Shown piece after piece: positions 9,192 through 9,969 of a DNA stretch of 34,623 nt (position 1 is its first letter; each line of letters begins with the position of its first letter). Made by a program: the position numbers and the translations under genes. The notes below the pieces were generated by a model. That model was given only the letters and a program-made list of their open reading frames with translations. It made no database searches and was not told the origin of the DNA. The stretch comes from Candidatus Woesearchaeota archaeon (lineage in GTDB: Archaea; Nanobdellota; Nanobdellia; Woesearchaeales; BM511): NCBI GenBank assembly GCA_018221175.1, contig JAAOYE010000077.1, positions 1 to 34,623 on the forward strand, written 5' to 3'.

Positions 9192-9969
9192 AGAAACAGT
9201 CAAAGTACAGATTGAGGGTGGAAAAGCTACCGCTGCGCCTCCTTTAGGTCCCGCATTTTAATAATATTAGGCGAAAGGACCCCTAAAGATTAATATTGGC
9301 GATGTTGTAAACCAAATCAACGAGAAAACAAAAGAGCTTGCAGGAATGCAGGTTCCTGTTTCTGTTATCATTGACACAGACACAAAAGAATTTGAAATAA
9401 AGGTAGGCACTCCGCCAGCATCAGCACTAATCAAACAGGAAGCAGGTGTTAAAAAAGGAGCAGGAAACCCATTAACAGAAAAAGTAGCTGACCTTAAAAT
9501 CGAGCAAATCATCAAGGTTGCAAAGATGAAAGAAACATCACTTCTAGGAAAAACCCTAAAAGACAAAGGCAAAGAAATCATAGGAACATGTCAGTCAATG
9601 GGCATCCTGGTTGAAGGAAAACCAGTTCCAGAAACACTAAAAGATGTTGATACAGGAATGTATGACGAGAAGTTCGCGTCTGGAAAAACAGAGCTTTCAG
9701 TTGAAGAACTAAAACAGCAAGAAGAAGATAGGATAAGGATGCAGGAAGAAATCGAGGCAAAGCGCGCAGAGTACGAAGCCAAAGCTAAAGACATCATTGC
9801 TCAGATGAAAGACAAAGACAGAAAAGAAATAGAAGCAAAGATGAAAGAAGAAGAGCTTCCACAAGCAATAATCAATGAAATGCTTCCAGAAGAAGCAGCT
9901 GTGCCTATTGAAGGAGAAGAAGCACCAGAAGCAGAAGAAGTTCCTAAAGAAGAAGAAAAGCCTGAGTAA
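9184..9969 (+). CDS. rpl11: Ribosomal protein uL11, interrupted by an 18-nt in-frame stop-containing insert (proposed exons 9184-9257 and 9276-9969), with a long charged C-terminal extension
   Basis: AGGTGA lies 5 nt upstream of ATG 9184. Exon 1 encodes [24 protein letters not shown], followed by TAA, TAA and TAG. The same frame resumes with [53 protein letters not shown]... The track shows only the 9346 Met fragment. Confidence 0.85.
9258..9275 (+). other. Candidate bulge-helix-bulge mini-intron in rpl11 mRNA (TTAATAATATTAGGCGAA)
   Basis: Sits between two 3-nt bulges (TTT 9256-9258, AAA 9274-9276) that are separated by helix CGCA/GGCG and closed by helices GGTCC/GGACC and TAA/TTA. Removing it restores Ala-Leu-Gly and the reading frame. 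Confidence 0.55.

What the first reader, a model, noticed from the sequence alone, without database searches (positions are those of the whole stretch)
9242..9288. rpl11 is split by an 18-nt stop-filled insert that folds as a bulge-helix-bulge splice motif and splices back to GPALGP
Seen in sequence: ATG 9184, with AGGTGA 5 nt upstream, opens a frame encoding [24 protein letters not shown], the unmistakable uL11 N-terminus. That frame then hits TAA (9259-9261), TAA (9262-9264) and TAG (9268-9270). The same frame resumes with [53 protein letters not shown]..., the rest of uL11. So this is a short in-frame interruption, not gene decay. Folding the RNA by eye gives: (1) an outer helix GGTCC 9247-9251 / GGACC 9277-9281, extendable past a CC bulge by CTTTA 9242-9246 / TAAAG 9284-9288; (2) a 3-nt bulge AAA 9274-9276; (3) a central 4-position helix CGCA 9252-9255 / GGCG 9270-9273, with three G-C pairs and a terminal A-G mismatch; (4) a 3-nt bulge TTT 9256-9258 on the opposite strand; (5) an inner helix TAA 9259-9261 / TTA 9267-9269; (6) a 5-nt loop. 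This is the h-B-H-B-h geometry cut by the archaeal tRNA-splicing endonuclease EndA. As I recall, EndA cuts after the second nucleotide of each bulge. Doing so removes 9258-9275 (18 nt, all three stops) and joins GCA-TT|A-GGA, giving Ala-Leu-Gly. That regenerates [15 protein letters not shown], the conserved motif at the correct length. Frame restoration and BHB geometry independently select the same two bonds. Established knowledge: BHB introns in archaeal protein-coding mRNAs are documented for very few genes (cbf5 in Crenarchaeota), and relaxed-specificity EndA types exist in Crenarchaeota, Nanoarchaeum and ARMAN-type lineages. Caveat: part of the outer helix follows from Gly (GGN) and Pro (CCN) codons being complementary.
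Basis: partly seen in the sequence, partly recalled or inferred. Interest (0 to 1): 0.9.

Follow-up and report, generated by a model that had tools for sequence, protein, structure and literature searches.

The report
Spliced mini-intron inside archaeal rpl11 gene
The gene for ribosomal protein uL11 in this DPANN (Woesearchaeota-type) archaeon is interrupted by an 18-base tRNA-type (bulge-helix-bulge) intron that must be cut out of the mRNA; in the literature searched, archaeal protein-gene splicing of this kind is reported only for cbf5, and here the intron travels with a homing-endonuclease-like gene next door.

Summary
rpl11 (ATG 9184) has in-frame stops at 9259, 9262 and 9268. Removing exactly 9258-9275 restores [16 protein letters not shown], which is near-invariant in 119 homologs, and gives an end-to-end archaeal uL11.

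The bulge-helix-bulge (BHB) intron reading is strongly supported by comparison, not by folding energy (z = -1.06). Database searches recovered eight more distinct alleles at the same bond, with inserts of 16-24 nt. Most are not multiples of 3, yet all splice back to GPALGP in full-length ORFs. Across the nine alleles:
- 90.7% of structure cells pair, against 31-55% in slid controls.
- Seven pairs show compensatory changes; helix H occurs as CGCU/GGCG, AGCA/UGCU and GGCU/GGUC.
- The exon bases that must pair are constrained only in intron carriers.

This excludes a pseudogene, an assembly artefact, stop-codon reassignment and ribosome hopping.

A further finding: the ORF ending on the rpl11 start codon (7941-9191) is a two-motif LAGLIDADG endonuclease with an I-DmoI/I-Tsp061I-like fold. 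All 13 family members examined sit directly upstream of rpl11. Six carry the intron, against 0 of 80 loci without the gene. Four of five comparable (Woesearchaeota-type) intron-less carriers have a mutated site. I infer, but have not shown, "collaborative homing", with the mini-intron protecting the endonuclease's target.

There is no transcript or enzyme evidence.

The parts
9172..9177 (+). Shine-Dalgarno-like AGGTGA, 6 nt before the rpl11 ATG
   Evidence: Read directly from the sequence.
9184..9257 (+). rpl11 exon 1: 24 codons plus the first two bases (TT) of the Leu25 codon, encoding [24 protein letters not shown](L)
   Evidence: The spliced product matches Pfam Ribosomal_L11_N over positions 1-58 of 58 and NCBIfam archaeal uL11 over 1-160 of 164 at 207 bits.
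9258..9275 (+). 18-nt BHB mini-intron TTAATAATATTAGGCGAA. It carries in-frame TAA, TAA and TAG.
   Evidence: This is the only excision that restores GPALGP. Eight other alleles have homologous inserts at the same bond.
9276..9969 (+). rpl11 exon 2: the third base of Leu25, then GPLKINIG... to the stop at 9967-9969. It includes a Glu/Lys-rich C-terminal extension of about 95 aa.
   Evidence: Gene callers saw only the 207-aa ORF 9346-9969 (P0039).
9242..9288 (+). The whole hBHBh' motif: outer extension 9242-9246/9284-9288; h 9247-9251/9277-9281; H 9252-9255/9270-9273; 5' bulge 9256-9258 (cut 9257|9258); h' 9259-9262/9266-9269; loop 9263-9265; 3' bulge 9274-9276 (cut 9275|9276).
   Evidence: MFE fold; RNAalifold consensus; pair counts over nine alleles.
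7941..9191 (+). 416-aa protein with an N-terminal HTH_3, a double LAGLIDADG core and a C-terminal HTH. It is a putative free-standing homing endonuclease. Its stop overlaps the rpl11 ATG by 8 nt, and it lies 66 nt upstream of the intron.
   Evidence: Pfam. Conserved LGDG(E) and RGLFDTDG motifs. AlphaFold pLDDT 91.5. Foldseek matches to I-Tsp061I, I-DmoI and PI-SceI. The family is always found upstream of rpl11.

Best explanation
rpl11 is transcribed with an 18-nt archaeal bulge-helix-bulge intron. In the pre-mRNA, exon codons Gly-Pro (GGUCC) pair with the downstream Gly-Pro codons (GGACC) to form the outer helix. Exon C-GCA pairs with intron GGCG to form the central helix. UUU and AAA form the two 3-nt bulges on opposite strands, and an AU-rich hairpin closes the intron.

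The tRNA-splicing endonuclease EndA would cut after the second base of each bulge (9257|9258 and 9275|9276). An RtcB-type ligase would then join the exons, giving GCA-UUA-GGA (Ala-Leu-Gly) and a normal uL11. Unspliced mRNA would yield only a 25-residue peptide, because a stop codon follows the 5' splice site directly.

Shown: the sequence, the uniqueness of the junction, conservation of the structure with covariation across nine alleles, and the intact spliced ORFs.

Inferred: that EndA and RtcB do the cutting and joining.

A second, more tentative layer: the LAGLIDADG gene abutting rpl11 encodes a homing endonuclease whose target is the conserved intron-less GPALGP-coding DNA. The intron, or point changes at that site, protects the carrier allele, and the endonuclease gene and the intron spread together by gene conversion ('collaborative homing'). 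My confidence is about 0.9 for the BHB intron and about 0.5 for the homing layer. The figure given is for the intron.
For: **Junction**
- Only excision of 9258-9275 regenerates GPALGP, which is present in 117 of 119 homologs.
- The spliced protein is an end-to-end archaeal uL11.

**Independent alleles**
- A degenerate exon pattern with a variable gap matched 0 of 80 intron-less loci. Its ungapped form matched 55 of 80.
- The gapped form found five metagenome contigs with inserts at the same bond.
- Contexts of the endonuclease homologs gave four more.
- Insert lengths are 16-24 nt, and every spliced ORF seen to its stop is full length at 238-272 aa.

**Structure**
- Over nine alleles, 90.7% of cells form standard pairs, against 31-55% when partners are slid.
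- Seven pairs change on both sides. The covariation score is 0.313 against 0.162 for shuffles, and none of 500 shuffles reaches it.
- The first H pair is C-G (seven alleles), A-U (L088) or G-C (L096). The middle h pair is U-A, A-U, C-G or U.G. The third h' pair is A-U or G-C.
- RNAalifold finds h, H and the 3-nt bulge de novo. The MFE folds of L086 and L088 are complete hBHBh' motifs.

**Exon constraint**
- The Pro third base is C in 3 of 71 intron-less genes, but always pairs in carriers.
- The Gly wobble bases pair in 20% of intron-less genes and in 7 of 9 carriers (binomial p = 3e-4).
- Fourfold-degenerate sites are near saturation between alleles (31-62% identity).

**Cut rule and enzymes**
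- PMC2738675 gives the cut rule. PMC5829648 describes the DPANN EndAs.

**Endonuclease layer**
- The fold and catalytic Asp residues are conserved.
- All 13 family members examined lie immediately upstream of rpl11.
- The intron is present in 6 of 13 loci with the endonuclease gene and 0 of 80 without it (Fisher p = 2e-6).
- Among intron-less Woesearchaeota-type alleles, the site is altered in 4 of 5 with the gene and 9 of 78 without it (p = 0.002).
- The intron's distribution is patchy. L082 is 92% identical to intron-less L006, and the window is 79% identical to P0001/L097, which lacks both the intron and the endonuclease gene.
Against: **Against or limiting the intron reading**
- There is no transcript, cDNA, proteomic or enzymatic evidence.
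- The fold of the window's own copy is not energetically exceptional (z = -1.06).
- Its central helix has an A.G mismatch next to the 5' bulge, and its inner helix is 3-4 A-U pairs.
- Neither EndA nor RtcB is in the 34.6-kb window, and the rest of the genome cannot be searched for a second rpl11.
- GG/CC complementarity of Gly and Pro codons supplies four of the five outer-helix pairs for free.

**Against the homing layer**
- The target site and nuclease activity are untested.
- WhiA, a domesticated LAGLIDADG-plus-HTH regulator, is also a structural match.
- L085 has the intron but no endonuclease gene within 5.5 kb upstream.
- L091 has the endonuclease gene next to a canonical PPLGPALGP site.
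- Four of the six loci with both features were found through the endonuclease.
Confidence: 0.88

Rival explanations
1. The gene is a decaying pseudogene. The 18 nt would be a random insertion that happens to carry stop codons, with a functional rpl11 elsewhere in the genome.
For: Gene callers report only a truncated 207-aa ORF (P0039). The rest of the genome is not available to exclude a second copy.
Against: - Nine diverged lineages (51-88% uL11 amino-acid identity) keep an insert at the same bond, with no other lesion, and full-length spliced ORFs.
- Synonymous sites are saturated while the protein is conserved.
- The insert co-varies with the exon.
- The window has only one rpl11 locus, and none sits beside L1/L10.
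Confidence: 0.02
2. The 18 nt are an assembly or sequencing artefact.
For: The window is a single metagenome contig, and its own protein cluster has one contig.
Against: Equivalent inserts occur in independent assemblies from JGI, ENA (two Hainich samples), Logan and three NCBI MAGs. L081 and L083 carry the identical allele in two different samples.
Confidence: 0.01
3. Programmed translational bypassing, as in phage T4 gene 60. The ribosome would take off at the Ala (or Phe/Leu) codon before the stop and land downstream, with no RNA splicing.
For: - A stop codon follows the take-off region in all nine alleles.
- In eight of the nine alleles an Ala codon (GCG or GCU) lies in the exon-2 frame just before A(A/G)A-GGN. 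An Ala-to-Ala hop is therefore formally possible there.
Against: - That hop would give GPA(K/R)GP, not the near-invariant GPALGP.
- In L096 the exon-2 frame reads UAG-GUC-UGA before GGG, so no Ala landing codon exists and a stop blocks the path.
- The window's UUU has no matching UUU or UUC landing site.
- Hopping does not explain compensatory changes in helix H or the constraint on the Pro and Gly wobble bases.
- From my own knowledge, bypassing has not been described in archaea.
Confidence: 0.03
4. The BHB intron is real, but the upstream LAGLIDADG protein is unrelated to it. On this reading it is a domesticated WhiA-like DNA-binding regulator, or an independently inserted selfish gene, and its association with the intron reflects shared ancestry.
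For: - WhiA (LAGLIDADG plus a C-terminal HTH) is among the structural matches.
- The protein has HTH domains at both ends.
- Its position is fixed across very divergent lineages, down to 34% identity.
- L085 has the intron without it, and L091 has it beside a canonical site.
Against: - Both catalytic Asp positions are conserved family-wide (D109 in at least 90% of members; D205 invariant).
- Its distribution is sporadic, at 0 of 80 species-representative loci.
- It is strongly enriched for either the intron or a mutated site exactly at the insertion point.
- uL11 of carriers is often closer to non-carriers than to other carriers.
Confidence: 0.3

Closest known systems
cbf5 pre-mRNA introns of Crenarchaeota (Watanabe 2002; Yoshinari 2006; Yokobori 2009, PMC2738675)
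   Same: - A short BHB-type intron lies inside a protein-coding ORF.
- Exon-intron borders are predicted by cuts between bulge residues 2 and 3.
- The phylogenetic distribution is patchy, implying gain and loss.
- Removal restores a conserved protein.
   Different: - The host gene is a ribosomal protein (uL11), and the lineage is DPANN/Woesearchaeota rather than Desulfurococcales or Sulfolobales.
- The intron is 16-24 nt and sits 74 nt into the ORF.
- Most alleles are canonical hBHBh', not the relaxed motif tied to crenarchaeal heteromeric EndA.
- It is linked to an adjacent LAGLIDADG gene.
- There is no cDNA or enzyme evidence here.
Archaeal rRNA BHB introns that encode LAGLIDADG homing endonucleases (I-DmoI, I-Tsp061I)
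   Same: A BHB intron is paired with a monomeric two-motif LAGLIDADG enzyme. The predicted fold of the window protein matches these enzymes best by target coverage (TM 0.61-0.70).
   Different: - Here the endonuclease gene is outside the intron, free-standing and immediately upstream of the host gene.
- The intron is too small to encode anything.
- The host is an mRNA, not an rRNA.
- The protein carries extra HTH domains at both ends.
Collaborative homing: free-standing F-CphI plus the ORF-less group I intron in cyanophage S-PM2 psbA (Zeng, Bonocora and Shub 2009, as described in PMC6083498)
   Same: - A free-standing endonuclease gene lies adjacent to an intron-containing conserved gene.
- The intron has no ORF of its own.
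- The proposed logic is the same: the intron interrupts the enzyme's target and protects the carrier, and the enzyme mobilises the intron.
   Different: - The intron here is protein-spliced (BHB/EndA), not a self-splicing group I ribozyme.
- The enzyme is LAGLIDADG, not Endo VII-like.
- The host is a cellular archaeal genome, not a phage.
- Cleavage and protection are inferred here, not demonstrated.
Phage T4 gene 60 translational bypass
   Same: A short stop-containing gap interrupts a conserved ORF, with a stop codon right after the last decoded codon and a local hairpin.
   Different: - There are no matched take-off and landing codons that give the conserved product.
- Landing is impossible in allele L096.
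- The structure that co-varies is a BHB, not a take-off stem-loop.

Membership tests
Archaeal bulge-helix-bulge (hBHBh') intron | Two 3-nt bulges on opposite strands, separated by a 4-bp central helix | tested here: met
   Window: UUU and AAA bulges, with H = CGC/GCG plus an A.G mismatch. Seven of nine alleles have a full 4-bp H. The definition comes from PMC5829648.
Archaeal bulge-helix-bulge (hBHBh') intron | Flanking helices h (exon-exon) and h' (within the intron) | tested here: met
   h is 5 bp with 95.6% of cells paired. h' is 2-7 bp with 83% paired and compensatory A-U/G-C changes.
Archaeal bulge-helix-bulge (hBHBh') intron | Cuts between residues 2 and 3 of each bulge give a functional joined product | tested here: met
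   All nine alleles give ...PPLGPALGP..., and every spliced ORF seen to its stop is full length. The rule comes from PMC2738675.
Archaeal bulge-helix-bulge (hBHBh') intron | Structure maintained by covariation across homologs | tested here: met
   Seven pairs have changes on both sides. The covariation score is 0.313 against 0.162, with no shuffle out of 500 reaching it. Slid controls pair in 31-55% of cells, against 90.7% observed.
Archaeal bulge-helix-bulge (hBHBh') intron | Cleavage by EndA and ligation by RtcB; spliced RNA observed | not testable with these tools
   No transcriptome or enzyme assay is available. No EndA or RtcB domain was found in the 34.6-kb window, and the rest of the genome is unavailable.
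LAGLIDADG homing endonuclease (monomeric, two-motif) | Two LAGLIDADG motifs with conserved catalytic acidic residues | tested here: met
   The motifs are LIGIILGDGE (G108, D109 and G110 in at least 90% of members) and LRGLFDTDG (R199 to G206 invariant) across 26 members down to 33% identity.
LAGLIDADG homing endonuclease (monomeric, two-motif) | The LAGLIDADG endonuclease fold | tested here: met
   AlphaFold pLDDT is 91.5. Foldseek probability is 1.00 to I-Tsp061I (TMt 0.70), I-DmoI (0.61-0.67), PI-SceI and I-SceI. It also matches the non-nuclease WhiA.
LAGLIDADG homing endonuclease (monomeric, two-motif) | Site-specific double-strand cleavage of the allele that lacks the element | not testable with these tools
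   This needs an in vitro cleavage assay on intron-less rpl11 DNA.
Collaborative homing (free-standing endonuclease plus ORF-less intron) | Endonuclease gene adjacent to, and statistically associated with, an intron that has no ORF | tested here: met
   All 13 family members examined abut rpl11. The intron is present in 6 of 13 loci with the gene and 0 of 80 without it (p = 2e-6). In the sample not selected through the endonuclease, the figures are 2 of 3 against 0 of 80 (p = 9e-4).
Collaborative homing (free-standing endonuclease plus ORF-less intron) | The enzyme cuts the intron-less site, and the intron (or a site change) blocks cutting | not testable with these tools
   Only indirect evidence exists. 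Four of five intron-less Woesearchaeota-type alleles beside the endonuclease gene have the site changed (GSS or PQL), against 9 of 78 without the gene (p = 0.002).
Programmed translational bypass (T4 gene 60 type) | Matching take-off and landing codons that yield the conserved product | tested here: not met
   No landing codon exists for the window's UUU. An Ala-to-Ala hop would give K or R in place of the invariant L, and it is impossible in L096, which reads UAG-GUC-UGA before exon 2.
Self-splicing group I or group II intron | Ribozyme core of hundreds of nucleotides, detectable by Rfam models | tested here: not met
   The insert is 16-24 nt, and the window has no Rfam hit.

The most novel reading that the evidence does not exclude
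An ORF-less 16-24-nt BHB mini-intron in an essential ribosomal-protein mRNA acts as the immunity half of a two-part selfish element. The other half is a free-standing LAGLIDADG homing endonuclease inserted on the rpl11 start codon, which targets the ultra-conserved GPALGP-coding DNA of intron-less alleles. The two spread together among DPANN archaea by gene conversion. Lineages that keep the endonuclease gene without the intron escape by mutating the Pro-Ala codons. To my knowledge this would be the first collaborative homing involving a protein-spliced (EndA-dependent) intron. It would also give a mechanism by which BHB introns can invade protein-coding genes.
Probability: 0.45. Interest if true: 0.88.

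Novelty: new variant of a known kind. Interest (0 to 1): 0.78.

Why it matters
- **Scope of archaeal mRNA splicing.** In the literature searched, archaeal mRNA splicing by the tRNA endonuclease pathway is documented only for cbf5 in Crenarchaeota. A 2025 paper on archaeal EndA still cites only those studies. A recurrent, covariation-supported BHB intron in a universal ribosomal-protein gene of DPANN archaea would show that the pathway acts on mRNAs in a second superphylum and a second gene class.
- **Annotation.** Gene callers truncate these rpl11 genes and lose the N-terminal domain (P0039; L086-L088 and L096). This affects marker-gene annotation and possibly completeness estimates and phylogenomics for DPANN genomes.
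- **Intron spread.** The link to a LAGLIDADG gene gives a concrete, testable route by which tiny ORF-less BHB introns could be mobilised and maintained. It would connect the archaeal rRNA-intron endonucleases (I-DmoI type) with the phage 'collaborative homing' model.
- **A possible tool.** If active, the enzyme is a natural meganuclease aimed at one of the most conserved coding sequences known.

Tried and rejected
- **Folding energy as evidence.** The 59-nt region folds no better than shuffles (z = -1.06). I rejected energy as a criterion and used comparative data instead.
- **tRNA and Rfam scans of the window.** Neither found anything, so there is no local tRNA intron for comparison.
- **Species-representative genomes.** All 80 Woesearchaeota/Nanoarchaeota rpl11 loci are uninterrupted. 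They served as the intron-less control set.
- **Generic scan for other BHB inserts that bridge ORFs.** In the window and 85 loci it gave 3,411 hits in 0.5 Mb of sequence, both strands scanned. Most are out-of-frame artefacts inside real genes. It is uninformative and was abandoned, so I cannot say whether other genes here carry mini-introns.
- **PDB sequence search with the upstream protein.** It returned only a weak HTH match. Structure prediction followed by Foldseek was needed.
- **Stop-codon reassignment.** Rejected: TAA, TGA and TAG all terminate annotated genes in the window, and homologs have no extra residues at the site.
- **Mini-intein or in-frame insertion.** Rejected: the insert contains stops, and insert lengths include 16, 17, 22 and 23 nt.
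- **EndA or RtcB in the window.** None was found.
- **Literature.** Nine searches found no earlier report of an rpl11 or other ribosomal-protein BHB intron, or of an rpl11-linked LAGLIDADG family in DPANN. The library does not cover most subscription journals.
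Full report
**1. The observation**

- An ATG at 9184, six bases after AGGTGA, opens [25 protein letters not shown].
- The frame then meets TAA (9259), TAA (9262) and TAG (9268), and resumes as ...[27 protein letters not shown]... to a stop at 9967-9969.
- The named helices and bulges are at the stated coordinates.
- The window is 36% G+C. Its genes are archaeal (DtdA, FKBP26, FtsZ, Spt5/NusG, P0, eS24).
- The closest uL11 proteins are annotated Candidatus Woesearchaeota or Nanoarchaeota, so this is a DPANN archaeon.
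- Gene callers recorded only the 207-aa C-terminal ORF (P0039).

**2. Homology alone fixes the junction**

I enumerated all frame-restoring deletions. Only removal of 9258-9275 gives GPALGP. That motif, within [16 protein letters not shown], is present in 117 of 119 retrieved homologs with no length variation. The spliced protein matches Pfam Ribosomal_L11_N over positions 1-58 of 58, and the NCBIfam archaeal uL11 equivalog over 1-160 of 164 at 207 bits. The window holds one rpl11 locus only. TAA, TGA and TAG all terminate other genes, so stop-codon reassignment is excluded.

**3. Is the BHB more than chance?**

By energy, no: the MFE of -11.6 kcal/mol has z = -1.06. Loosely defined BHBs are also frequent in this AT-rich DNA (147 on the + strand). 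That is about 8.5e-5 per specified position and length.

Four of the five outer-helix pairs follow from GGN/CCN codons. The exon geometry GGNCC-N-GCN-YT|N-GGNCC automatically places the outer helix 6 nt before the 5' cut and 1 nt after the 3' cut. Conditioning on that, a random 18-nt insert produces both the CGC/GCG pairing and an inner stem of at least 3 bp in about 0.1% of trials. This is suggestive, not decisive.

**4. Comparative evidence**

None of 80 species-representative Woesearchaeota/Nanoarchaeota rpl11 loci is interrupted. I then wrote a degenerate pattern of the conserved exon codons with a 13-43-nt gap at the junction. Its ungapped form matches 55 of 80 intron-less loci. The gapped form matches none of them, but it does match the window.

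In the metagenome collection the gapped pattern found five contigs: L081 (identical to L083 here), L082, L084 and L085. Following the upstream gene (section 7) gave L086, L087, L088 and L096. There are now nine distinct alleles, from JGI, ENA, Logan and NCBI assemblies. Their inserts are 18, 21, 16, 23, 24, 17, 22, 17 and 16 nt, all at the same bond.

Every allele has the same layout:
- h, GGNCC;
- H, NGCN;
- a UU|U or UU|A bulge;
- a variable hairpin;
- H', complementary to H;
- an AA|A, AG|A or UG|A bulge;
- h, GGNCC.

Cutting after the second bulge base gives GPALGP in all nine. The eight contigs that reach the stop codon give spliced ORFs of 238-272 aa. Because most lengths are not multiples of three, the insert cannot be a translated insertion.

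**5. Covariation and controls**

On the nine-allele alignment, 90.7% of the cells in the named structure form standard pairs. With partners slid by one to three columns, the figure is 31-55%. Seven pairs have changes on both sides. The covariation score is 0.313, against a shuffled mean of 0.162, and none of 500 shuffles reaches it. One search gives the same picture for eight alleles.

The most telling cases:
- Helix H is CGCU/GGCG in most alleles, AGCA/UGCU in L088 and GGCU/GGUC in L096.
- The middle pair of h is U-A in the window and A-U in its nearest carrier L086. It is C-G in L085.
- The third pair of h' alternates between A-U and G-C.

RNAalifold recovers h, H, the 3-nt 3' bulge and an outer extension without guidance. 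The unconstrained MFE folds of L086 and L088 are complete hBHBh' motifs.

The exon positions that must pair are constrained only in carriers.
- In 71 intron-less genes the Pro third base is C in 3. In all nine carriers it pairs with the intron.
- The two Gly wobble bases form a standard pair in 14 of 71 intron-less genes, against 7 of 9 carriers (p = 3e-4).

Shared ancestry does not explain this. Fourfold-degenerate sites are 31-62% identical between carriers. The closest intron-less relatives (L006 to L082, 92% amino-acid identity; L065 to L084, 91%) have CCU or CCG at that Pro codon.

**6. Rivals**

- *Pseudogene or artefact.* Excluded by nine independent, otherwise intact, conserved alleles.
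- *Ribosome hopping.* It would need matched take-off and landing codons. An Ala-to-Ala hop is formally possible in eight alleles. It would put Lys or Arg in place of the invariant Leu. It is impossible in L096, where the exon-2 frame reads UAG-GUC-UGA before GGG. It also explains none of the covariation.
- *Group I or II introns and inteins.* Excluded by size, the lack of Rfam hits and the stop codons.

The cut rule is the one established for cbf5 introns (PMC2738675). DPANN lineages have EndA enzymes, many with a loop associated with increased tRNA gene disruption (PMC5829648). Most alleles here are canonical enough not to need relaxed specificity.

Still inferred: the enzymes themselves, and actual splicing in vivo.

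**7. The upstream gene**

ORF 7941-9191 ends 8 nt inside rpl11. It has an N-terminal HTH_3, a LAGLIDADG_3 domain and a C-terminal HTH.

A tblastn search against all 85 loci then held found a homolog only in L082, another intron carrier, again abutting rpl11. The protein database holds about 50 close homologs (33-68% identity) from DPANN. All eleven whose contexts I fetched lie immediately upstream of rpl11, usually after spt5/nusG.

The state of rpl11 in those eleven loci:
- Intron present: the four whose endonuclease is most similar to the window's (L086, L087, L088, L096).
- No intron, site altered: PPVGSSLGP or PPIGSSLGP in L089 and L090; PPLGPQLGP in L092 and L093.
- No intron, canonical site: L091.
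- Very divergent uL11 genes: L094 and L095.

Two family members (P0125, P0126) were even called as read-through fusions ending "...PPLGPAL", stopping at the intron's stop codon.

Both LAGLIDADG motifs and their catalytic Asp residues are conserved across the family. The AlphaFold model (pLDDT 91.5) matches I-Tsp061I and I-DmoI, the enzymes encoded inside archaeal rRNA BHB introns. It also matches intein endonucleases, and the domesticated regulator WhiA.

Statistics:
- The intron is present in 6 of 13 loci with the endonuclease gene and 0 of 80 without it (p = 2e-6).
- Using only loci found independently of the endonuclease, the figures are 2 of 3 against 0 of 80 (p = 9e-4).
- Among intron-less Woesearchaeota-type alleles, the site is non-canonical in 4 of 5 with the gene and 9 of 78 without it (p = 0.002).

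Carriers are scattered in the uL11 tree. The window's closest relative, P0001/L097 (79% identity), has neither element, while the nearest carrier, L086, is 73% identical.

**8. Interpretation of the upstream gene**

The simplest reading is the archaeal counterpart of 'collaborative homing', described for F-CphI and the psbA group I intron of cyanophage S-PM2 (PMC6083498). A free-standing endonuclease targets the conserved intron-less site. The ORF-less intron, or point changes, protects the carrier. Repair of the break copies both elements, which lie only 66 nt apart.

The insertion point lies within the N7 spacer of the inverted repeat GGNCC-N7-GGNCC, 1.5 nt from its centre. From general knowledge of these enzymes, that is roughly where a LAGLIDADG enzyme would cut. 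This is my inference only.

Counter-indications:
- the WhiA-like architecture;
- L085, which has the intron but no endonuclease gene;
- L091, which has the endonuclease gene beside a canonical site;
- the complete absence of biochemical data.

I give this layer about 0.45-0.5.

**9. Novelty and verdict**

Nine literature searches found no report of a BHB intron in a ribosomal-protein gene, or of this rpl11-linked LAGLIDADG family. A 2025 EndA paper still cites only the cbf5 studies for mRNA introns.

The splicing mechanism is of a known kind. The host gene, the lineage, the very small size and the coupling to a free-standing endonuclease gene are new, so I rate it a new variant of a known kind.

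The main reservation is that no RNA or enzyme evidence exists.

Noticed in passing
window 6868-7517 (- strand): An 89-aa GIY-YIG-domain ORF (6868-7137) and an unknown 127-aa ORF (7134-7517) sit between cmk and the LAGLIDADG gene. The syntenic locus L086 (FtsZ, FKBP26, cmk, LAGLIDADG, rpl11) has nothing in that interval. This looks like a second nuclease-type selfish insertion at the same hotspot.
   Followed up: partly
window 9660-9966; homologs P0001-P0120: uL11 carries a Glu/Lys/Ala-rich C-terminal extension of about 95 aa, giving a 255-aa protein against about 160 aa for typical archaeal uL11. Nearly all Woesearchaeota-type homologs share it (most 233-290 aa). Its function is unknown.
   Followed up: no
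all nine intron alleles, e.g. window 9259-9261: Every allele has an in-frame TAA or TAG as the very next codon after the 5' bulge codon (UUU-UAA, UUA-UAG and so on). Unspliced mRNA would therefore end after 25-26 residues. The UA of this stop also forms the two most conserved h' pairs, so selection for the stop and for the helix cannot be separated.
   Followed up: partly
L089, L090, L030, L064 and L032/L036/L038/L057/L092/L093: The rare departures from the near-invariant PPLGPALGP motif cluster on the two codons that flank the intron insertion point: Pro-Ala becomes Ser-Ser or Thr-Thr, and Ala becomes Gln or Ser. They are enriched next to the LAGLIDADG gene. They may be endonuclease-resistant alleles.
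   Followed up: partly
P0125, P0126 (L096 443-1783): In some relatives the LAGLIDADG ORF is in frame with rpl11 exon 1. It is called as one protein ending ...[14 protein letters not shown] and stops at the intron's stop codon. This is an annotation artefact that can serve as a search handle for more intron alleles.
   Followed up: partly
window 29698-29946 (- strand): A stand-alone 82-aa ORF matches only the last 43 positions of the anaerobic ribonucleotide reductase model NRDD (positions 518-560 of 562, E = 3.5e-9). These include the CxxC and RVVGYY glycyl-radical motif. No NrdD body lies nearby. It could be a spare-part-type radical domain or a gene fragment.
   Followed up: partly
window 3654-4151, 9184-9969, 31445-33212: The usual archaeal nusG-L11-L1-L10 arrangement is broken up. 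nusG/spt5 is on the opposite strand 5 kb upstream of rpl11. L1 and L10/P0 are 21 kb away on the minus strand, preceded by eS24. A Na/Pi cotransporter-PhoU fusion follows rpl11.
   Followed up: no
window 12388-21777 (- strand): This is a compact glycogen/alpha-glucan gene cluster: GDE_C debranching-type enzyme, NTP-transferase, GalT-like HIT protein, a eukaryote-type Glycogen_syn (PF05693, 515 bits), GH57 and a GT4/GT5 synthase. An unannotated 283-aa ORF (18033-18884) lies within it.
   Followed up: no
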